From: Escherichia coli
GTDB taxonomy: Bacteria; Pseudomonadota; Gammaproteobacteria; Enterobacterales; Enterobacteriaceae
Assembly: GCF_048403405.1 (NCBI RefSeq)
Contig: NZ_CP183129.1
Strand: one strand, 5' to 3'
DNA length: 64,000 nt
Position numbers and translations under genes: made by a program. The stretch's first letter is position 1. Each line of letters starts with the position of its first letter. The notes under the pieces were generated by a model. The model did not search any database. It was not told the DNA's origin and worked only from the letters and a program-made list of their open reading frames with translations. This document shows positions 47,169-56,200 of the stretch, piece after piece.

Positions 47169-48490
47169 TGCCTAAACTTGTCACTTGGATGAACAACCAG
47201 CGGGTAGGCGAGTTAACGAAGTTAGCCAATGGCGCGCACACCTTTAAGTATGCACCGGAGTGGTTAGCCAACCGTTATGCCAGACCGTTATCACTTTCGC
47301 TGCCATTGCAGAGGGGGAATATCACCTCTGATGCTGTATTTAACTTCTTCGATAACCTGCTACCCGATAGCCCGATTGTACGTGACCGGATCGTTAAACG
47401 TTATCATGCTAAATCCAGACAACCGTTTGATTTATTGTCAGAAATAGGGCGAGATAGCGTTGGTGCCGTAACGTTATTACCCGAAAATGAAACCATAACG
47501 CGCCCGATAATGGCATGGGAACAGCTCACTGAAGCCAGGCTTGAAGAAGTATTAACGGCTTATAAAGCAGATATCCCTCTGGGCATGATTAGAGAAGAAA
47601 ATGACTTTCGCATCTCGGTTGCTGGCGCGCAGGAGAAGACAGCGCTGCTCAGAATAGGCAATGACTGGTGCATTCCGAAAGGAATAACGCCGACGACGCA
47701 CATCATTAAATTACCGATTGGCGAAATCAGGCAGCCCAATGCGACGCTCGATCTCAGCCAAAGCGTTGATAATGAGTATTACTGTCTGCTGCTGGCGAAA
47801 GAACTTGGGTTGAATGTGCCGGACGCAGAAATCATTAAAGCGGGAAATGTGCGCGCGTTAGCGGTCGAACGTTTTGACAGGCGTTGGAATGCTGAGCGAA
47901 CGGTTTTACTTCGCTTGCCACAGGAGGATATGTGTCAGACATTCGGTTTACCTTCATCGGTGAAATATGAATCAGATGGAGGCCCAGGCATCGCGCGGAT
48001 CATGGCTTTTTTGATGGGGTCCAGCGAGGCGCTGAAAGATCGCTATGATTTTATGAAGTTTCAGGTGTTCCAGTGGTTGATTGGCGCAACGGATGGCCAT
48101 GCAAAAAACTTCTCCGTATTTATTCAGGCTGGCGGCAGTTATCGACTCACGCCATTTTACGACATCATTTCAGCATTTCCGGTATTGGGTGGCGCAGGAA
48201 TACACATCAGCGATCTCAAACTAGCAATGGGGCTTAACGCATCCAAAGGCAAAAAAACGGCAATCGATAAAATTTATCCGCGACATTTTCTGGCGACAGC
48301 AAAGGTGCTGAAATTTCCGGAAGTGCAGATGCATGAAATCCTGAGTGACTTTGCCAGAATGATTCCGGCAGCACTGGATAACGTGAAGACTTCATTACCG
48401 ACAGATTTTCCGGAGAACGTGGTGACGGCAGTTGAAACCAATGTGTTGAGGTTGCACGGCCGGTTAAGCCGAGAATACGGTATTAAGTAA
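47168..48490 (+). CDS. hipA: HipA serine/threonine kinase toxin
   Basis: 440 aa from MPKLVTWMNNQRVGELTKLANGAHTFKYAPEWL...; the ORF track began 19 codons upstream. Confidence 0.95.
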   Translation: MPKLVTWMNNQRVGELTKLANGAHTFKYAPEWLANRYARPLSLSLPLQRGNITSDAVFNFFDNLLPDSPIVRDRIVKRYHAKSRQPFDLLSEIGRDSVGAVTLLPENETITRPIMAWEQLTEARLEEVLTAYKADIPLGMIREENDFRISVAGAQEKTALLRIGNDWCIPKGITPTTHIIKLPIGEIRQPNATLDLSQSVDNEYYCLLLAKELGLNVPDAEIIKAGNVRALAVERFDRRWNAERTVLLRLPQEDMCQTFGLPSSVKYESDGGPGIARIMAFLMGSSEALKDRYDFMKFQVFQWLIGATDGHAKNFSVFIQAGGSYRLTPFYDIISAFPVLGGAGIHISDLKLAMGLNASKGKKTAIDKIYPRHFLATAKVLKFPEVQMHEILSDFARMIPAALDNVKTSLPTDFPENVVTAVETNVLRLHGRLSREYGIK

Positions 48491-48888
48491 GATATGGGGT
48501 TTTGGTCGTTGTTAATGAGCAGGACAATCATGACCGCCAACGACTGGATTCTCCCTTGGTTTATGTTGGTGCGCATAATGTATATTATGTTAAATGTGGT
48601 GGGTTTGTTCTTAAGTTCATGTGTTCCGCTCTTTCAGTAGCTTAACTGATGAATCAGTCAGCAGCTCTTGCCGTGCAAGCTACGCGGCGGTTCGTACCAG
48701 ATTGGCCACCTCCATCTCCTGGTTCGCTTTCCCCTCCCCCCGGTAAACCTCACCCAACGTTAATTAATGATGTCAGTATGTGGGCGCTATCCTCGTATGT
48801 AAAATCCACTGACGATTACGCCCATCTGTGAAAAAAAACTCACAATGCCATTCGATGCATCTCCATACTGAACGAGGCGTTATCGTCT

Positions 48889-49436
48889 TTATCGCCCCGT
48901 AGTGGATATCAGAAAATCAATCAGGGCCTTCACTCTTTTCGTTTTACCCGCGTTTTTGGGGTAATAGAGATACACTGGCGGGTAGGTTTTCCAGTAGCTC
49001 TCCATCACCGGAATAAAACGCTCCCTGTCCGGCTGTAACTGCCAGACAGGCTCAAACTTTCTAACTGTATACCCGGATATTGCTGACAGAATTCTGCCAT
49101 CGCAGGCTTAAGAATTAACAGGTAGGCAAAACGCGAGAGCGTAATTCGCACCATCCCAGAGGGCTCCTGATGCTGGTCGCGAATGCTTTCAAGTGAGTTT
49201 TCCAGCGACTCCACCGCCGCAGCGGTCTGTTCCAGCAATAATTGACCGGTTTCCGTCAGCTCTATACGGCGGGTCGTACGCACAAAAAGCGGATGGCCGA
49301 TATACTCTTCCAGCAGCTTTAGTGCATTGCTGACGGAGGGAGGCGTAATTTCCAGTTTCCTTGCGGCTGCCGAAATATTGCCCTCCCGCGCAATGCTCTG
49401 GAAGATGCGAATCTGGTTATAAAGAGCGTTATTCAT
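48889..49436 (-). pseudogene. LysR-family regulator, frameshifted and internally shortened
   Basis: N-terminal 143-aa ORF (49005-49436) has the LysR HTH (ISAAARKLEITPPSVSNALKLLEE) and stops prematurely; a second frame (48889 to about 49075) encodes a LysR-like C-terminus (...KTKRVKALIDFLISTTGR*). Total is about 180 codons against about 300 expected. Confidence 0.55.
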
Positions 49437-49571
49437 AATGTTTTCCTAAGCAATTCTCGCCTGATTATTAAGTACAGTCTAAAAATGCTTAAGTCAATGA
49501 CCCTCTAATCTTCCTGAAATACGCCTCTTATACTTTAGTCTCTTTCTACTACGACCTGAGTTCAGGAGACT

Positions 49572-49883
49572 ATGATGCGAATTTTATGTCTGGATATCCC
49601 TGCCCCTGGAGCATCGCTGGAGAAATATGCTCCGCACCTCAACGCTGAAGCGCTGCACGCCTGGGGATTGTATAAATCAGGCTTCATCCGCGACATCTAC
49701 TTCCGTCAGGACAGACCTGGCGTCGCTATTTTTCTTGAATGTGACTCTGTCGATGAAGCGATGAACGTTATGGCCGAATTCCCGTTGGCAAAAGCAGGCT
49801 TACTAAGCTTCGAGTGTATACCGCTTGGCTCCTTTATTAACTGGGAAAATCTCTTCGCCGATGAATTTAAAAATAAAGAGTGA
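49572..49883 (+). CDS. Small dimeric alpha+beta-barrel protein, muconolactone isomerase-like
   Basis: 103-aa ORF; the pattern R(P)GV-x-FLECDSVDEAMNVMAEFPL resembles the MLI family core (...VFDV-SxEAxH-x-LxxLPL...); AGGAG Shine-Dalgarno upstream. Confidence 0.55.
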   Translation: MMRILCLDIPAPGASLEKYAPHLNAEALHAWGLYKSGFIRDIYFRQDRPGVAIFLECDSVDEAMNVMAEFPLAKAGLLSFECIPLGSFINWENLFADEFKNKE

Positions 49884-49891
49884 GGACCGAT

Positions 49892-50581
49892 ATGAAACCT
49901 GCATATAAACCAGTGCTATGTGTCGTTTCCAGCCATCCGATTAAAGGCGCATCCGGTGTACCAACCGGTTTTTTCCTGGCCGAGCTGACTCATCCGCTGA
50001 AAGTACTGGAAGATGCCGGAATAAAAACAACAATAGCCAGTATTCGCGGGGGGCAGCCACCGGTGGATGGATTTGACCTCAGCGACCCTGTTAACGCCTG
50101 GTACTGGAACGAAACCGATTTTCAGCAGCGCCTGGCAACAACACCTGCGTTATCCGAGCTGAAAGGTGCCGATTACAGCGCAGTTTTCTTTGCAGGTGGT
50201 CATGGGACCATGTGGGATTTCCGTGATAATCAGGATGCCCAGCGTATTATCCGCGAAGTGTATGAAAGTGATGGGATTGTCTCAGCCGTCTGCCACGGGC
50301 CTGCGGCATTGGTTGACGCAAAACTCAGTAGCGGCGAATACCTGATAAAAGGGAAAAATGTGGCGGCCTTTACCAACAAGGAAGAGGAAGAAGTTCACAC
50401 AACAGATGTGGTTCCCTTCCTGCTTGAAACCGCACTTCGCGAGCATGGTGCGCTTTATCATGAAGCTCCAAACTGGTCTGAAAACGTGGTTACCGACGAT
50501 CGCCTTATCACGGGGCAGAATCCCGCTTCAGCACATGGGGTTGGTGTGGCGCTGTTAAATGCACTCCGCCGGACAGCTTAA
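49892..50581 (+). CDS. DJ-1/PfpI-family (class I glutamine amidotransferase-like) protein
   Basis: About 229 aa from MKPAYKPVLCVVSS...; conserved nucleophile-elbow Cys context (AVCHGPAAL); GAGGA Shine-Dalgarno before the ATG at 49892; 8 nt after the previous stop. Confidence 0.8.
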   Translation: MKPAYKPVLCVVSSHPIKGASGVPTGFFLAELTHPLKVLEDAGIKTTIASIRGGQPPVDGFDLSDPVNAWYWNETDFQQRLATTPALSELKGADYSAVFFAGGHGTMWDFRDNQDAQRIIREVYESDGIVSAVCHGPAALVDAKLSSGEYLIKGKNVAAFTNKEEEEVHTTDVVPFLLETALREHGALYHEAPNWSENVVTDDRLITGQNPASAHGVGVALLNALRRTA

Positions 50582-50654
50582 TTAATTCATCGTTACTCAC
50601 CTTACTTGGCCGGTTTAAGTCAGCCACGATCCGGCCTTTTTTCAGGAGCTGAAT

Positions 50655-51602
50655 ATGAAAACACTACCTCCAGTCGCACTAGGTACATGGTCCTGGGGCA
50701 CAGGCTTTGCCGGCGGCGACACCGTCTTTGGTAATCATCTTTCTGATACTCAGATGGCAGAAGTGTTCACTGCGGCCATGAGTAAGGGCCTCAATCTCTG
50801 GGATACCGCAGCAGTATATGGTATGGGGAGTTCCGAGACTGCGCTGGGAGCATTAGTCCGTCAGTTTCCCCGCGAGAACATAATTTTATCCACCAAATTC
50901 ACGCCGCAGATTGCGGACAAGCAGTCTGCGCAGCCTGTCAGCGATATGCTTGAGGCCAGCCTTGGGCGCCTGGGCGTGGACGCGATTGATATCTACTGGA
51001 TCCATAATCCCCTCGACGTCGAAAAATGGACACCAGGACTGATCCCACTTTTACAAAGCGGTAAGGTAAAACGCGTAGGTGTTTCCAACCACAATCTGGC
51101 ACAAATCAGACGCGCCAATGAAATCCTTAACGCTTCCGGTTATTCCCTCAGTGCAGTACAAAATCACTACAGCCTGCTCTATCGCGCTTCTGAAGAGGCC
51201 GGGATCCTTGATTATTGCCGACAAAATAACATCACGTTCTTTGCTTACATGGTCCTGGAGCAAGGCGCGCTCAGTGGTCGTTATGATTCAAATCATCCCA
51301 TGCCTGCCGGGAGTGGCCGGGCCGAAAGTTATAACGCAGTACTGCCGCAGATAGAAAGACTAACCGCCGCCATGAAAAAAATGGGAGCCGAAAGGAATGC
51401 CAGCGTGGCACAGATAGCCATCGCATGGGCTATTGCGAAAGGTACCCTTCCCCTCGTTGGTGCGACTAAAGTCCATCACGTTCTGGACGCCGCCTGCGCT
51501 TCAGACATCCAGTTACGCGATGAGGAAATCATCCTGCTGGAACAACTCGCCGCAGAGACCAGAGTGGATACACGAGGCGCCTGGGAAAAACCGATGGTGT
51601 AA
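50655..51602 (+). CDS. Aldo/keto reductase
   Basis: 315-aa ORF with AKR fold features (WDTAAVYG, IDIYWIHNP, GVSNH). Confidence 0.85.
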   Translation: MKTLPPVALGTWSWGTGFAGGDTVFGNHLSDTQMAEVFTAAMSKGLNLWDTAAVYGMGSSETALGALVRQFPRENIILSTKFTPQIADKQSAQPVSDMLEASLGRLGVDAIDIYWIHNPLDVEKWTPGLIPLLQSGKVKRVGVSNHNLAQIRRANEILNASGYSLSAVQNHYSLLYRASEEAGILDYCRQNNITFFAYMVLEQGALSGRYDSNHPMPAGSGRAESYNAVLPQIERLTAAMKKMGAERNASVAQIAIAWAIAKGTLPLVGATKVHHVLDAACASDIQLRDEEIILLEQLAAETRVDTRGAWEKPMV

Positions 51603-51704
51603 AGCCCGTCCGGAACAGACTGTCATGAATGACACACACGAACGGGCTGTTCCGGGTGATTCTAATCTGTATCACTTTTACTGCTTTGTATGAATGGTGA
51701 GAAT

Positions 51705-52381
51705 ATGAAAATCATTTGCCTCGAAGAACATTATCTCGACAGCGAGTTAGGGCGAGCGTGTATGCCTGTTGCGCTTGAGCAGGCACCTTTCCTTGGCGAC
51801 TGGGGGAAAACCGTCGCTGATGGTCATAATCCTGACCGACTCCCTGCTTTCCCGCTTTAATAAACTGAATGTGCCACTCTATCTTCATCCCGGGTTACCG
51901 CTTAAAAGCGTACAGCAGGCCTACTTCACGGGCTTCAGCGCAGAGGTCAACGCCAGGCTTTCTATGTTTGCCTGGGGCTGGCATCACGAAGCGGGGATCC
52001 ATTTGTTGCGGCTGATGTTATCGGGCGCATTTGATAAATATCCCAACCTGCAGGTAATCAGTGGCCACTGGGGGGAGATGTTACCCTTCTGGCTCCAGCG
52101 TCTTGATGACAGCCTACCACTGGCTGCAACGGGTCTGTCACGCACGCTAACGAGAACCTTCCAGGAACACGTTTACGTTACCCCGTCATATGCTAACACT
52201 GCCGCACTTCCAGTTTATCTACGCGTTAATGGGTGCTGAAAGGATCCTGTTCTCCGTCGATTATCCCTATCAGACCCTGGACGGTGTAAAAACCTTTATA
52301 GACAGTCTGCCCGTCAACAAGGCTGAAAAAGAGGCCATCGCGTTTCGCAATGCAGAACGTTTACTGGGCATCACGGTTTAG
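51705..52381 (+). pseudogene. Amidohydrolase-2 (ACMSD/LigW-like metal-dependent hydrolase/decarboxylase) with at least two frameshifts
   Basis: Three consecutive fragments in different frames: MKIICLEEHY... (51705 to about 51860), ...ISGHWGEMLPFWLQRLDD... (track ORF 51769-52239) and ...FSVDYPYQTLDGVKTFIDSLPVNKAEKEAIAFRNAERLLGI (52190-52381). Confidence 0.5.
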
Positions 52382-52531
52382 TTCACCGTTTCATGATGAT
52401 TGAGCACATTGTGATCAGCCGACAATTATTAGTTTTTGCCTAAAAGTGAATGAGCCTTTACTGCTCTAAAAAAATAATGTTGTCACTCTATACTGGATTT
52501 AATATTCACCAAAGATGTTTAACTGATTGAA

Positions 52532-53104
52532 ATGAAAAATATCCTTGTTATTTCAGGTCATCCTGAGCTTACCCATTCCGTCGCCAATGCCACTATTCTT
52601 GATGAAGTGGAGACCGCCCTTCCCGATGTTGAGATTCGTCGTCTGGACAGGCTCTATCCGGATGGCAAATTCAACATCGCGGCGGAGCAGGAAAGCCTGC
52701 TCAGGGCCGATGTGATTGTCTGGCAGTTCCCTTTTTCCTGGTATGGGCTGCCAGGATTAATGAAAAAATGGCTGGACGAGGTCTTTGTTCACGGCTTCGC
52801 GCATGGCTCAACGGCGAAACTGGGCGGTAAAAAGCTGATCCTCTCCTTTACAACGGGAGCGCCAGAGGAGCTCTATACCGTCGACAGTTTCTTTGGCCAT
52901 ACCATTGAAGAGTATCTAATTCCGTTCGAGACCACAGCAAAACTGTGCAATCTTGAGCTGCTGGAGCCGGTTTATACCTGCGGTATCAGCTATGCCGATC
53001 GGGATGCCGACAAACTCGCGCAGCAAAAAACGCTTGCCTGGGAACACGCTTCAAGGCTTGTCGATCTGCTCAATTCCGTCGTGAATAATCCAGAGGGAGA
53101 ATAA
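52532..53104 (+). CDS. Flavodoxin-like-fold NAD(P)H:quinone oxidoreductase (KefF/KefG/YwrO-like)
   Basis: 190 aa; N-terminus MKNILVISGHPELTHSVANATIL... and the FPFSWYGLPGLMKKWLDEVF block resemble KefG-type quinone reductases. Confidence 0.75.
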   Translation: MKNILVISGHPELTHSVANATILDEVETALPDVEIRRLDRLYPDGKFNIAAEQESLLRADVIVWQFPFSWYGLPGLMKKWLDEVFVHGFAHGSTAKLGGKKLILSFTTGAPEELYTVDSFFGHTIEEYLIPFETTAKLCNLELLEPVYTCGISYADRDADKLAQQKTLAWEHASRLVDLLNSVVNNPEGE

Positions 53105-53106
53105 CA

Positions 53107-54126
53107 ATGCAGTATACCCGGCTCGGTAAAAGTAACTTACTTGTTTCCCGCATCTGCATGGGATGCATGGGGTTTGGCGATCCGTCGACGGGTCAGCATA
53201 GCTGGACGCTGGACGAAACAGCAAGCCGCGACATCATTCGCTATGGCCTTGAAAAGGGCATCAACTTTTACGATACCGCTATAGCCTACCAGAATGGCTC
53301 CAGTGAGCGATACGTTGGCCGGGCATTACGGGAGATGGCGAAACGCGATGATATCGTCCTGGCCACCAAGTTTCTGCCGCGAACCCCCGCACAAATTGCC
53401 GGAGGGATCAGCGGAAAAGAGGCAATCGCTCAATCCCTTGACCAGAGCCTGAAGAATCTGGGGATGGACTATATCGACCTCTACATCTACCACATCTGGG
53501 ATTACAACACGCCCATTATCGACGTGCTTGAAGCGTTATATGCCGCTGTTACTGCTGGCAAAGTACGAGCTGTTGGTATTTCAAACTGCTATGCCTGGCA
53601 GCTGGCGAAGGCGAACGCCCTTGCTGAACGCGAAGGGCTGACGCCCTTTGTTTCCGTACAGAGCCACTACAATCTAATTATGCGCGAAGATGAACGGGAG
53701 CTCTTCGGCCTGTGCACTGAGGATAATATCGCAATGACCCCCTATAGCGCGCTGGCCAGCGGCCGCCTCTCTCGTAAAGAAGGCTATACACGGCGAGCCA
53801 CAGAGGATGACTATGCGCGTGGAAAATATGACAGCACGGCTGAACAGGATCGCAGCATTATTGAGCGTGTAGCCGAACTGGCCGAACGCCATCTGGTGTC
53901 AATGACGGAAATATCTCTCGCTTGGCTGCTGACAAAAGTCACATCACCTGTCGTAGGGGCTACAAAAAAAGCTCATGTCGATGGCGCGGTAAACGCAGTA
54001 AATCTTCAACTAAGTCCGGAGGAAATTCAGTTTCTGGAAGAAACCTACCAGCCGCATGTTCTGACGGGGATCATGGCGCAAAATACGCCGCAAACGAAAG
54101 ATGTTAAGCAGGTCTGGATGCGATAG
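53107..54126 (+). CDS. Aldo/keto reductase (Tas/YdjG-like)
   Basis: 339 aa; AKR motifs (FYDTAIAYQNG, IDLYIYHIWD, GISNC); starts 3 nt after the preceding gene, so probably co-transcribed. Confidence 0.85.
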   Translation: MQYTRLGKSNLLVSRICMGCMGFGDPSTGQHSWTLDETASRDIIRYGLEKGINFYDTAIAYQNGSSERYVGRALREMAKRDDIVLATKFLPRTPAQIAGGISGKEAIAQSLDQSLKNLGMDYIDLYIYHIWDYNTPIIDVLEALYAAVTAGKVRAVGISNCYAWQLAKANALAEREGLTPFVSVQSHYNLIMREDERELFGLCTEDNIAMTPYSALASGRLSRKEGYTRRATEDDYARGKYDSTAEQDRSIIERVAELAERHLVSMTEISLAWLLTKVTSPVVGATKKAHVDGAVNAVNLQLSPEEIQFLEETYQPHVLTGIMAQNTPQTKDVKQVWMR

Positions 54127-54241
54127 CCCTTATTCACTTTTCCTCCTCTCGTCTTTGAGAGCGCCAGTAGCGGTCGGTTACGTTCTTACCAGCACCAGTT
54201 GATCGAACGTCTTAAACAGTAACGTCAGTAAAAAGATCATC

Positions 54242-54967
54242 GTGAAAAAGACTTTTATGCTTTTAATTTGCATGCTAATAAGCAGCCCTGTCTTTGCAAC
54301 AAAACCGGACGCGCCGAATAAGCCGGAGATGAATATCTTCGAGCTCGGCATCAGACCCGATCGGGACAACGACTTTGCAGACGTGGCCAGACAGACGATT
54401 TCCGCTTCGGTTGATCATGAAGCAGGTACACTGGCGATGTATGCCCTGCAACGCAGCGACAATTCAGGTCAGGCATTCATGTTCGAACTCTATGAAAATG
54501 AGCGTGCTTATCGCAAACATCTCAATGCCGCCCCATACAAAGCATTCGCTGCTCGTGCAGCTGACATTATTGACAGGAAGAAGAAAATTACCCTGGAGCC
54601 ACAGTTTCTGGGCGACAAACACATCATACCGAATGAACGAACTATCAATAATCTGGTGATCGTCGAAGTAAAGCCTGAATTTCAGAGCGAATTTAGAAAC
54701 ATCGTCCTTCCTGAAATGGTCGAGTCGCTCAAAGTAGAGAAAGGCGTGTTAGCCATGTATGCCGGTACAGATTCAGAGACTCCAAAACGCTGGTATTTCT
54801 ATGAGATTTACGCCAGTGAGGAGGATTATCAACTGCACCGACAAACGCTGCACTTCCTGGAATACCTCAGGCAAACGGCGCATATGAGCGCCAGGAAGGA
54901 CGCAATCCCGGTAAAACCGGTATTTCTTCGTAACAAAGGCGGAATCAAACAGGAGCCGCAACGTTGA
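54242..54967 (+). CDS. Secreted protein with tandem ABM (antibiotic-biosynthesis-monooxygenase-like) domains
   Basis: 241 aa; N-terminal signal peptide (MLLICMLISSPVFA|TKPD); two repeats of an ABM-like ferredoxin fold (LAMYALQRSDN...FMFELYENERAYRKH and LAMYAGTDSETP...YFYEIYASEEDYQLH). Confidence 0.65.
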   Translation: MKKTFMLLICMLISSPVFATKPDAPNKPEMNIFELGIRPDRDNDFADVARQTISASVDHEAGTLAMYALQRSDNSGQAFMFELYENERAYRKHLNAAPYKAFAARAADIIDRKKKITLEPQFLGDKHIIPNERTINNLVIVEVKPEFQSEFRNIVLPEMVESLKVEKGVLAMYAGTDSETPKRWYFYEIYASEEDYQLHRQTLHFLEYLRQTAHMSARKDAIPVKPVFLRNKGGIKQEPQR

Positions 54968-54982
54968 CCAGTAAGGATTAAC

Positions 54983-55786
54983 ATGAAAAGCGTACTTGCA
55001 GCAGCGGCTATGTCGCTTGTTATTTCTGATTTTGCCAATGCTGAGGAAACAAGAGGTAAAGCTATGATGAAAATAGAACCGTCAGCGATTTCGGAAGCTG
55101 ATATTCGTTCCGTCTCACCGGCTCTCGCGCGCTTTGGTCGCGAAGCTATTACTGAAGATCTGTGGACACGCGACGCCCTCTCACCGAGGGATCGTAGTGT
55201 GGTGACCGTCGCCATGCTGATTGCCCGCAACCAGCCTGCCGAGCTTAAGCACTATATTGACGTCGCTCTCGATAGCGGCGTGACGCCAGCGGAATTATCA
55301 GAAATCATTACCCATCTGGCGTTCTACTCAGGTTGGCCAAATGCAATGTCAGCCGTCAGCGTGACCAAAGCAGTATTTGAAACTCGTGGCGTCACGCCAG
55401 ATGCGCTTCCTGACACTTCTCCGGACCTGCTTCCTCTCAATCAGGAAGCAGAAAAGCAGCGTTCAGAGACAGTGGAAAAAAATGTTGGCCGAATATCTCC
55501 AGGCTTGGTTAAATTTACTGCTGACCCACTGTTCCTGGATCTCTGGCAAAGACCCGCGCTAACCCCCCGTGATAGAAGCCTGATTACGGTCAGCGCGTTA
55601 ATCGCATCTGGACAGAGCGCGCAGATTGGCTATCACCTTAACAGAGCGATGGATAATGGACTTTCTGCTGAGGAAGCTGGGGAGATCGTTACCCAAGCCG
55701 CGTTTTACGCTGGCTGGCCAAACGCATTTACCGCTGCTCCGGTTGTGGGAGAGGTGCTAAACAATCGATCATCGAGTAAAAGGTAA
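54983..55786 (+). CDS. Secreted protein with tandem carboxymuconolactone-decarboxylase (CMD/AhpD-like) domains
   Basis: 267 aa; signal peptide (MKSVLAAAAMSLVISDFANA); two CMD-like repeats (LSPRDRSVVTVAMLIARNQ...HLAFYSGWPNA and LTPRDRSLITVSALIASGQ...QAAFYAGWPNA). Confidence 0.7.
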   Translation: MKSVLAAAAMSLVISDFANAEETRGKAMMKIEPSAISEADIRSVSPALARFGREAITEDLWTRDALSPRDRSVVTVAMLIARNQPAELKHYIDVALDSGVTPAELSEIITHLAFYSGWPNAMSAVSVTKAVFETRGVTPDALPDTSPDLLPLNQEAEKQRSETVEKNVGRISPGLVKFTADPLFLDLWQRPALTPRDRSLITVSALIASGQSAQIGYHLNRAMDNGLSAEEAGEIVTQAAFYAGWPNAFTAAPVVGEVLNNRSSSKR

Positions 55787-56200
55787 CATTACTGAACACT
55801 AAAACCTGACGCACATCACAACATTAGAACGAACAGTTCATGAACCAATAAGCGTAACATCGAGTGATTTATGGACAGCGTTTAACACAGTTATGAACCA
55901 AAACTGAGTTCATAACTGTGAGTTTGAATCGCCATTTGATTAATATCCATTTAAAACAGTTTGTTATGCTGTTTCTGGTGCTGAAGTCAATTATGTATAT
56001 CCCTCAAACCCAGAATAGTTAAATGGAATTTGAGTGATGCGAAGCGATTTTCCAGTCGTCGTTATTACTTCAGGGTTCCAGAACATAAAGCCTCTCCTCT
56101 TTCATGATTGGCCTGTGCATACCGGATATAGGCTGGCTGGTATGCAGGTTTGCCGTTTGCCGCATCTTCCCTGCGTTGAAGAGTCAGGCTGGCAAACCGC

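What the first reader, a model, noticed from the sequence alone, without database searches (positions are those of the whole stretch)
48889..49436. LysR regulator at the island border is frameshifted and shortened
The HTH-containing N-terminal 143 codons stop prematurely and a LysR-like C-terminus continues in another frame. A LysR regulator is the typical controller of catechol/muconate-type operons, so its inactivation may leave the adjacent enzymes constitutively silent or deregulated.
Basis: seen in the sequence. Interest (0 to 1): 0.3.

Follow-up and report, generated by a model that had tools for sequence, protein, structure and literature searches.

The report
LysR regulator gene killed by deletion
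An E. coli LysR-type regulator gene has lost 352 internal bases, so it is an ordinary, recent, strain-private pseudogene that probably leaves the neighbouring, already decaying, detoxification-type operon unable to be induced.

Summary
Window 48889-49436 (minus strand) is what remains of a 900-bp, 299-codon LysR-type regulator gene (WP_001057776.1 in other E. coli).

The lesion is one blunt 352-bp internal deletion, with the junction at 49057|49058. It removes codons 127-244 and shifts the frame. The remaining ORF has 143 codons: the HTH, the linker helix, 38 residues of the effector domain and 17 nonsense residues. The last 55 codons are readable in another frame.

The window is otherwise identical to E. 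coli strain 4621 over 27 kb, apart from one SNP. None of the 483 complete E. coli genomes that carry the gene appears to share the junction, so the deletion is very recent and private.

The regulator belongs to the CrgA/YafC-like subgroup, not the CatM/BenM/CbnR catechol subgroup. It is divergently paired, across phyla, with a conserved cassette: a small muconolactone-isomerase/YCII-fold protein, DJ-1/PfpI, aldo-keto reductases, Amidohydro_2, a flavodoxin-like quinone reductase, ABM and CMD. This is not a catechol/muconate pathway.

A conserved operator block and a poor -35 hexamer suggest an activator-dependent promoter. The likely result is an operon that cannot be induced. Other E. coli carry independent lesions in the same gene, and the operon's amidohydrolase gene is already broken. 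This is ordinary gene decay of low interest.

The parts
49058..49436 (-). Retained 5' part of the LysR-type regulator gene (ancestral nt 1-379). It encodes 126 native residues: the winged HTH (7-65), the linker helix (about 66-88) and the first 38 residues of the effector domain.
   Evidence: This part is identical to WP_001057776.1 up to E126.
49005..49436 (-). The present-day ORF of 143 codons: 126 native residues, then 17 out-of-frame residues (SLSLSGSYSRTGSVLFR), then a stop codon.
49057..49058 (.). Deletion junction. 352 bp of the ancestral gene (nt 380-731, codons 127-244) are missing here. The joint is blunt, with no microhomology.
   Evidence: the window is colinear with L001 and L003 on both sides of this point.
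48889..49057 (-). Retained 3' part of the gene (ancestral nt 732-900): codons 245-299 plus the stop codon, now out of frame and untranslated.
49437..49571 (.). Divergent control region. It contains a block conserved across four genera at about 49463-49512, which includes TTAAG-N15-CTTAA (49468-49492). The candidate operon promoter has -35 TAATCT (49506-49511) and -10 TATACT (49529-49534). A Shine-Dalgarno AGGAG sits at 49564.
   Evidence: Alignment A1 and coordinates. The promoter assignment rests on conservation only. The consensus scan found no promoter here.
49575..49883 (+). First operon gene. It encodes a 102-aa protein with no Pfam or NCBIfam family and a predicted muconolactone-isomerase/YCII-like ferredoxin fold.
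   Evidence: pLDDT 92; ClcF, TftG, HI0828, 1mli.
49892..50581 (+). DJ-1/PfpI (type 1 glutamine amidotransferase-like) gene.
50655..51602 (+). Aldo/keto reductase gene.
51690..52381 (+). Amidohydro_2 pseudogene, an older lesion consisting of a deletion of about 118 codons plus a frameshift.
   Evidence: The gene is fragmented in the same way in other E. coli.
52532..53104 (+). Flavodoxin_2 NAD(P)H oxidoreductase gene (KefF-like).
53107..54126 (+). Second aldo/keto reductase gene.
54272..54967 (+). Gene for a tandem ABM-domain protein, annotated 'putative quinol monooxygenase'.
54983..55786 (+). Gene for a tandem CMD (carboxymuconolactone decarboxylase/AhpD-like) family protein.

Best explanation
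SHOWN. Window 48889-49436 is a pseudogene of a 299-aa LysR-type transcriptional regulator. One blunt 352-bp internal deletion removed codons 127-244 and shifted the frame. Using the domain boundaries of the equally long CrgA, the lost part is the second half of RD-I, most of RD-II, the effector pocket and the regulatory-domain oligomerisation interface. The event is very recent and private to this isolate. The regulator is the conserved divergent partner of the adjacent operon.

INFERRED. The start codon, ribosome-binding site and promoter region are unchanged. The gene is therefore probably still expressed as a 143-aa stub carrying the DNA-binding domain and the linker helix. That stub can neither sense an effector nor form the higher oligomer that LysR-type regulators need to reach the activation site and recruit RNA polymerase. 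The operon promoter has a conserved -10 but a very poor -35 that overlaps a conserved block, with a conserved dyad centred near -61. This is the classic layout of an activator-dependent LysR-type promoter. The most likely outcome is that the operon (49575-55786) stays at basal level and cannot be induced. The operon encodes carbonyl-, quinone- and lactone-type enzymes and is not a catechol pathway. The loss is probably near-neutral, because this cassette is already decaying in E. coli.
For: Lesion.

Recency: window 37000-64000 differs from strain 4621 only by one SNP (37129) and the deletion. The 14-kb query was reported as 100.0% identical to six strains, each carrying the 352 extra bases.

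Privacy: in all 40 listed top hits among 483 gene-carrying genomes, the match is in two pieces spanning about 552 bp, and a single-piece exact match would have ranked first. The 143-aa product is not on record in the public gene-position index. The junction 34-mer is absent from the metagenome contigs.

Regulator-operon link: orthologues of 299 aa and 80-95% identity sit divergently next to the same cassette, with an intergenic region of about 140 bp, in Klebsiella, Serratia and Dickeya, each in a different chromosomal context. Duganella and Archangium have an LTTR divergent from a related cassette.

Operator and promoter: conserved block and -10 element.

Domain logic: CrgA RD-I is residues 89-162 and 265-299, RD-II is 163-264, and the N-terminal dimer interface is residues 1-89 (PMC2724274). 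CrgA is an autorepressor and the activator of a divergent quinone reductase gene. The intact protein aligns with CrgA over residues 8-298.

Decay context: the Amidohydro_2 gene is already a pseudogene. Other alleles of the regulator are independently broken. The cassette is present in only 483 of 5426 complete genomes.
Against: No expression data exist, so the direction of regulation (activator or repressor) is inferred only from promoter anatomy and family precedent. The consensus scan found no sigma-70 promoter in the intergenic region, so the -10/-35 assignment rests on conservation alone. No convincing T-N11-A dyad could be singled out. The absence of the allele from every public source searched also fits an assembly error, and no reads were available to exclude that.
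Confidence: 0.75

Rival explanations
1. The 143-aa stub is not inert. It has the DNA-binding domain and the linker helix, so it dimerises, still occupies the conserved operator, and acts as an effector-blind constitutive repressor or autorepressor.
For: The HTH_1 domain and the linker are intact. The start codon, Shine-Dalgarno sequence and upstream DNA are identical to those of strains with the intact gene. In CrgA the N-terminal interface (residues 1-89) dimerises through the linker helices on its own. Isolated DBD-linker fragments of LysR-type regulators, 70-101 aa long, exist as solved structures (5xxp, 7trv, 9irz, 4pzj, listed).
Against: The stub also carries 38 residues of a broken RD-I subdomain and 17 nonsense residues, which are likely to misfold and be degraded. 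LysR-type regulators normally need tetramers or octamers for stable, cooperative operator binding. Nothing was measured.
Confidence: 0.15
2. The regulator is mainly a repressor of the divergent operon, so the deletion derepresses the operon and makes it constitutively expressed rather than silent.
For: LysR-type regulators of this subgroup can repress. CrgA is described as both repressor and activator, and a Pseudomonas CrgA represses alkB2 (PMC6422896 abstract).
Against: The conserved -35 region is a 2-of-6 match to TTGACA and overlaps a conserved protein-binding-like block. This is typical of activator-dependent promoters. The consensus scan finds no autonomous promoter there.
Confidence: 0.15
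3. The deletion is an assembly or sequencing artefact, or a change made after isolation, and the real chromosome carries the intact gene.
For: The allele was found nowhere else: not in the listed top hits from 5426 complete E. coli genomes, not in the public gene-position index, and not in the metagenome contigs. The flanks are identical to those of strains with the intact gene.
Against: The missing 352 bp are unique sequence with no flanking repeats, and they occur nowhere else in the window. Assemblers do not normally drop such a segment. Independent natural lesions in the same gene are common.
Confidence: 0.04
4. One reading: this is a CatR/BenM-type regulator of a catechol/muconate (beta-ketoadipate-type) operon, and that operon is now deregulated.
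For: The first operon gene has a predicted fold closest to 5-chloromuconolactone isomerase ClcF and to muconolactone isomerase 1mli. The last gene belongs to the carboxymuconolactone decarboxylase family. The intact orthologous Amidohydro_2 gene belongs to a family that, from general knowledge, includes aromatic-acid decarboxylases and lactonases.
Against: CatM matches only residues 8-145 (8.7e-7) and CbnR only the HTH, whereas CrgA and 3mz1 match over the full length. The small protein has no PF02426 hit and only 14-16% identity to ClcF and 1mli. The CMD protein scores 117 against the PcaC cut-off of 155.7. The segment contains no dioxygenase, cycloisomerase, enol-lactonase, CoA-transferase or thiolase.
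Confidence: 0.05

Closest known systems
CrgA of Neisseria meningitidis (PDB 3hhg), a LysR-type autorepressor and activator of the divergent quinone reductase gene mdaB
   Same: Both are 299 aa. The alignment covers the full length (residues 8-298, E 5e-28). Both are divergently transcribed from an operon that includes an NAD(P)H quinone-type oxidoreductase. The same domain plan is assumed (DBD, linker helix, RD-I, RD-II).
   Different: The target operon here is a multi-gene cassette with a Flavodoxin_2/KefF-like enzyme rather than MdaB. The oligomeric state and the effector are unknown. The window copy lacks codons 127-244 and is frameshifted, so it is a pseudogene.
E. coli YafC and related uncharacterised LysR-type regulators (NCBIfam NF040888)
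   Same: This is the best-scoring named model (E 7.8e-48 over residues 6-295).
   Different: The score of 162.8 is far below the equivalog cut-off of 470, so the protein is a paralogue-level relative and not YafC.
CatM, BenM, CatR and CbnR, the LysR-type regulators of catechol and chlorocatechol operons
   Same: They belong to the same superfamily, share the divergent regulator-operon layout, and have the N-terminal HTH.
   Different: There is no effector-domain similarity detectable by phmmer: CatM aligns at 8-145 only and CbnR at 6-77 only. No cat, ben or pca catabolic genes are adjacent.
Ordinary bacterial pseudogenes formed by internal deletion, such as the yneL, ydeT and yneO remnants at the same locus in E. 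coli K-12
   Same: It is a strain-specific loss of an accessory gene through deletion or frameshift, in a variable chromosomal segment.
   Different: This allele is private. It leaves an intact, probably expressed, DNA-binding module, and it has near-isogenic comparators with the intact gene.

Membership tests
LysR-type transcriptional regulator (LTTR) | N-terminal winged helix-turn-helix (Pfam HTH_1, PF00126) | tested here: met
   Residues 7-65, E 1.4e-22, 79.8 bits against a cut-off of 26.6.
LysR-type transcriptional regulator (LTTR) | Complete C-terminal effector-binding domain (Pfam LysR_substrate, PF03466), giving a protein of about 300 aa | tested here: not met
   The window ORF matches only profile positions 1-38 of 209, at 22 bits, below the 28-bit cut-off. 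The intact orthologue matches positions 1-205 with E 2e-26. The ORF is 143 aa instead of 299. The window copy is therefore a pseudogene of an LTTR, not a functional member.
LysR-type transcriptional regulator (LTTR) | Divergent arrangement with the regulated operon, sharing a short control region | tested here: met
   The intergenic region here is 135-138 bp. The same arrangement is found in Klebsiella, Serratia, Dickeya and Duganella, with a conserved block of about 50 bp.
LysR-type transcriptional regulator (LTTR) | T-N11-A recognition motif with dyad symmetry | tested here: inconclusive
   There are 13 T-N11-A instances in 138 bp, and none has more than 4 of 8 symmetric pairs. The conserved dyad is TTAAG-N15-CTTAA.
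LysR-type transcriptional regulator (LTTR) | Effector-dependent activation or autorepression shown experimentally | not testable with these tools
   This needs reporter fusions, EMSA or RT-qPCR.
CatR/BenM/CatM/CbnR catechol-muconate LTTR subgroup | Full-length similarity, including the muconate-binding effector domain | tested here: not met
   CatM 2h98 aligns only at residues 8-145 (8.7e-7) and CbnR 1ixc only at 6-77. CrgA and 3mz1 align over the full length.
CatR/BenM/CatM/CbnR catechol-muconate LTTR subgroup | Adjacent catechol or protocatechuate catabolic genes (catA/catB/catC or pca genes) | tested here: not met
   The operon encodes DJ-1/PfpI, two AKRs, Amidohydro_2 (a pseudogene), Flavodoxin_2, ABM and CMD. 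The 102-aa protein is muconolactone-isomerase-like by predicted fold only and has no PF02426 hit. The CMD protein is below the PcaC cut-off.
CrgA/YafC-like LTTR subgroup | Full-length sequence similarity to CrgA or YafC | tested here: met
   3hhg at E 5.2e-28 over residues 8-298. The YafC model gives E 7.8e-48 but is below the equivalog cut-off. The protein is related but is not an orthologue of either.
Pseudogene (recent, strain-private) | The reading frame is disrupted relative to full-length orthologues that are conserved elsewhere | tested here: met
   A 352-bp deletion plus a frameshift. Orthologues are uniformly about 299 aa at 80-95% identity across Enterobacterales.
Pseudogene (recent, strain-private) | The lesion is absent from the closest relatives | tested here: met
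   Six strains reported as 100.0% identical over 14 kb carry the intact segment. There is one SNP in 27 kb relative to strain 4621. No single-piece junction match was listed among 5426 genomes.

The most novel reading that the evidence does not exclude
The interesting object is the cassette, not the pseudogene. The LTTR and its operon are built around an unclassified protein of about 100 aa that is 62-84% identical from Enterobacterales to Burkholderiales, Myxococcota and Acidobacteria. This protein has a muconolactone-isomerase/YCII-like predicted fold and is inexplicably named 'superoxide dismutase' in many public records. Together with DJ-1/PfpI and Amidohydro_2, it may form an uncharacterised, widely distributed (hydro)quinone- or lactone-processing module. 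This isolate would then be a natural regulator knock-out, differing by about one SNP per 27 kb from strains with the intact gene. It could also be a natural DBD-only 'super-repressor'. Either way it could be used to find the inducer and the regulon.
Probability: 0.15. Interest if true: 0.35.

Novelty: new member of a known kind. Interest (0 to 1): 0.12.

Why it matters
It matters little on its own. It is one more example of accessory-gene decay in E. coli, at a locus (hipBA to ydeQRST) that is already known to vary and is full of remnants in K-12.

Its practical value is threefold. First, annotation should record one pseudogene with a 352-bp deletion rather than a 143-aa 'regulator'. Second, the adjacent enzymes should not be assumed to be inducible in this strain. 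Third, the isolate and its near-identical relatives with the intact gene (4621, TUM1226, MS 69-1, TUM14771, GN02461) form a ready-made pair for working out what this conserved, uncharacterised LysR-controlled cassette responds to.

Tried and rejected
- T-N11-A search in the intergenic region: there were too many weak instances to single out a LysR box. I relied on cross-genus conservation instead.
- Consensus promoter and terminator scan of 48480-49700: it found nothing in the intergenic region. The only hit (48803-48775, minus strand) is within the number expected from shuffles.
- Rfam on 46000-57000: no RNA family matched.
- Composition profile: there is no compositional island signature (GC 0.46-0.53).
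- Direct and inverted repeats or microhomology at the deletion endpoints: none, so slipped-strand or repeat-mediated deletion is not supported.
- Translocation of the missing segment within the window: none.
- Exact-product look-up of the 143-aa ORF and a junction scan of the metagenome contigs: nothing found.
- Sequence search of the 102-aa protein against PDB, Pfam and NCBIfam: nothing significant. The profile search gave only a weak TftG hit (E 0.059). The fold search was needed.
- Literature searches for dominant-negative truncated LysR-type regulators, and for a link between superoxide dismutase and muconolactone isomerase: unproductive.
- I did not enumerate intact versus broken alleles across all 483 carrier genomes, because only the top 40 rows can be listed.

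Full report
**1. Observation**

The window is E. coli chromosome, running lsrK - autotransporter - hipBA - variable segment - ydeQRST fimbrial genes - ydeP.

On the minus strand, ORF 49436..49005 encodes 143 residues. Pfam finds a LysR-family HTH at residues 7-65 (E 1.4e-22). It also finds only the first 38 of 209 profile positions of the LysR substrate-binding domain.

A second minus-strand frame reads FEPVWQLQPDRERFIPVMESYWKTYPPVYLYYPKNAGKTKRVKALIDFLISTTGR and then a stop at 48891-48889. This is a typical LysR C-terminus.

**2. Nature of the lesion**

A megablast search against 5426 complete E. coli genomes returned full-coverage matches that came in two pieces and spanned about 352 bp more than the query. 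In strain TUM14771 the gene is an intact 900-bp CDS, WP_001057776.1, of 299 aa.

Base-by-base comparison shows that the window is colinear on both sides of a single 352-bp gap.
- The missing part is ancestral gene nt 380-731, which is codons 127-244.
- The junction lies between window 49057 and 49058.
- The joint is blunt: CTCAAAC|TTTCTAAC. There is no microhomology and there are no flanking repeats.
- The missing segment is not elsewhere in the window.

Because 352 = 3x117+1, the downstream part is out of frame. The product is 126 native residues followed by 17 nonsense residues. Codons 245-299 survive untranslated.

The equally long homologue CrgA has RD-I at residues 89-162 and 265-299, RD-II at 163-264, and its N-terminal dimer interface at 1-89 (PMC2724274). 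On that map, the lesion removes the effector pocket and the regulatory-domain oligomerisation surface. It spares the DNA-binding domain and the linker helix.

**3. Age and spread**

Window 37000-64000 is identical to strain 4621 (a human blood isolate from Houston) except for one SNP at 37129 and this deletion. In the 14-kb search, six strains (4621, TUM1226, OX030728, TUM14771, MS 69-1, GN02461) were reported at 100.0% identity and all carry the 352 bp.

A 200-bp query centred on the junction matched 483 of 5426 genomes. Every one of the 40 listed top hits was in two pieces spanning about 552 bp. A single-piece exact match would have ranked first, and none appeared.

The 143-aa product is not on record in the public gene-position index. 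The junction 34-mer is absent from the JGI metagenome contigs. The deletion is therefore very recent and, as far as public data show, private to this isolate. An assembly artefact cannot be formally excluded without reads, but it is unlikely for unique sequence.

**4. Is it at an island border?**

Yes. Relative to K-12 MG1655, window 48596-56245 (7.65 kb) is absent. The remnant of the regulator gene begins 293 bp inside the left edge of this segment. Window 56246-56708 corresponds to the K-12 yneL remnant, and 56709-59989 is a second segment missing from K-12.

Base composition is unremarkable. The segment is present in only about 9% of complete genomes.

**5. What the regulator is**

For the intact protein, the best named models are YafC, GcvA, TtdR and AaeR, and all score far below their cut-offs.

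The closest solved structures are 3mz1, CrgA (3hhg, E 5e-28 over residues 8-298) and AphB. By contrast, CatM aligns only over residues 8-145 and CbnR only over the HTH. The protein is therefore not a member of the catechol/muconate regulator subgroup.

CrgA is an autorepressor and the activator of a divergently transcribed quinone reductase gene.

Orthologues of about 299 aa at 80-95% identity occur in Klebsiella, Serratia, Dickeya, Erwinia and Pantoea. The intact gene is thus well conserved in those genera.

**6. What it controls**

In Klebsiella, Serratia and Dickeya the orthologue sits divergently next to the same cassette, about 140 bp away. The cassette starts with a 102-107-aa protein. 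This is followed by DJ-1/PfpI, an aldo-keto reductase, an intact Amidohydro_2 of 344-391 aa, Flavodoxin_2, ABM and CMD. Klebsiella has a reduced version with the small protein, Flavodoxin_2, AKR and CMD. In each genus the cassette lies in a different chromosomal neighbourhood.

A LysR gene is also divergent from a related cassette in Duganella and in Archangium. This conserved pairing is the evidence that the regulator is dedicated to the operon.

An alignment of the intergenic regions from four genera shows three conserved features (coordinates):
- a block of about 50 bp containing TTAAG-N15-CTTAA (49468-49492);
- an invariant TATACT (49529-49534);
- an invariant CTAATCTT that covers the position of a very poor -35 hexamer (TAATCT, 49506-49511).

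With a transcription start near 49541, the dyad is centred near -61 and the second conserved element lies at -35. This is the canonical layout of a recognition site plus an activation site in an activator-dependent LysR-type promoter. This part is inference. The consensus scan called no promoter here, and no clean T-N11-A box emerged.

**7. Is the operon of the catechol/muconate type?**

Mostly not. The segment encodes DJ-1/PfpI (glyoxalase III-like), two aldo-keto reductases (methylglyoxal-reductase-like), a KefF-like flavodoxin-fold NAD(P)H oxidoreductase, a tandem ABM protein and a tandem CMD protein. No dioxygenase, cycloisomerase, enol-lactonase, CoA-transferase or thiolase is present.

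- The first gene has no Pfam or NCBIfam family. A confident AlphaFold model (pLDDT 92) is closest to 5-chloromuconolactone isomerase ClcF, to the YCII-family hydroxyquinol dehydrochlorinase TftG, to YciI-like HI0828, and to muconolactone isomerase 1mli. Identity is 13-20%.
- The last gene belongs to the carboxymuconolactone decarboxylase/AhpD family but scores below the PcaC cut-off.

The theme looks like processing of quinones, hydroquinones, carbonyls or lactones. The substrate is unknown.

**8. Consequence (inferred)**

The start codon, the Shine-Dalgarno sequence and the whole control region are unchanged, so a 143-aa stub is probably made. It cannot bind an effector or form the higher oligomer needed for activation.

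I consider a non-inducible operon at basal level the most likely result. Two rivals remain open, each at about 0.15:
- the stub still binds the operator as a dimer and acts as a constitutive repressor (isolated DBD-linker fragments of LysR-type regulators are stable enough to have been crystallised);
- the regulator is mainly a repressor, so the operon is derepressed.

**9. Context of decay**

The operon's Amidohydro_2 gene is already a pseudogene. Compared with the 344-aa Serratia orthologue, it retains only residues 1-45, 164-280 and 274-343, in three different frames. The same fragmentation is annotated in the other E. coli examined.

Other E. coli carry different lesions in the same regulator gene:
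- a 2-bp deletion in ETEC4068, and a frameshifted 898-bp copy in K_EC180 that may be the same allele;
- a frameshift near codon 233, in a protein cluster with 373 member sequences;
- an allele rearranged at both ends.

Together with the absence of the segment from about 91% of complete genomes, this points to relaxed selection on the cassette in E. coli. It makes the present deletion an ordinary event.

**10. Verdict**

This is a private pseudogene allele of a known family and is of low interest (0.12).

The conserved, uncharacterised cassette, and in particular its highly conserved protein of about 100 aa, is the only element that might repay further work.

Noticed in passing
window 51690-52381 (+): The operon's Amidohydro_2 gene is an older pseudogene. 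Compared with the intact 344-aa Serratia orthologue, only residues 1-45, 164-280 and 274-343 remain, in three frames. This means an internal deletion of about 118 codons plus a frameshift. The same fragmentation is annotated in TUM14771, ETEC4068 and 4621. The deletion is about the same size (roughly 350 bp) as the one in the regulator gene, probably by coincidence.
   Followed up: partly
window 49575-49883 (+): This 102-aa protein has no Pfam or NCBIfam family, yet it is 62-84% identical from Enterobacterales to Burkholderiales, Myxococcota and Acidobacteria. It has invariant R39, Y42, R44-Q45-D46-R47, E55, and W90-E91. Many NCBI and UniRef records call it 'superoxide dismutase' with no visible basis. 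The predicted fold is muconolactone-isomerase/YCII-like (ClcF, TftG, HI0828, 1mli).
   Followed up: partly
L005, L007, L009, L011, L012 (LysR gene with the divergent operon): An LTTR is paired with the small protein plus a subset of DJ-1/PfpI, Amidohydro_2, AKR, Flavodoxin_2, ABM and CMD (sometimes also SDR or ADH) in Klebsiella, Serratia, Dickeya, Duganella and Archangium. The chromosomal context differs in each. This is a conserved, apparently uncharacterised module.
   Followed up: partly
L002 5409-6306; L013 1132-2029; proteins P0086, P0092, P0110: Other E. coli carry independently broken alleles of the same LysR gene. ETEC4068 has a 2-bp deletion, and K_EC180 has a frameshifted copy of the same length. 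One allele has a frameshift near codon 233 and represents a cluster of 373 member sequences. One allele is rearranged at both the N- and C-terminal ends, with its C-terminus fused to sequence near window 48650-48745.
   Followed up: partly
window 48596-56245 and 56709-59989: Two segments are absent from K-12 MG1655. The second carries fimA, the chaperone gene and the 5' part of the usher gene, which explains the truncated ydeT and the yneL remnant in K-12. Window 56246-56708 matches the yneL region. In strain 4621, a partial helix-turn-helix pseudogene is annotated just upstream of that region, at about window 56189-56455, overlapping its start.
   Followed up: partly
window 41271-46691 (+): The 1806-aa ECSE_1600-family autotransporter gene is intact here. 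The corresponding K-12 gene, yneO, is annotated as a pseudogene, and the ETEC4068 copy is frameshifted.
   Followed up: no
window 37129: This is the only base difference (A here, G in strain 4621) across the 27 kb compared with strain 4621, apart from the 352-bp deletion.
   Followed up: no
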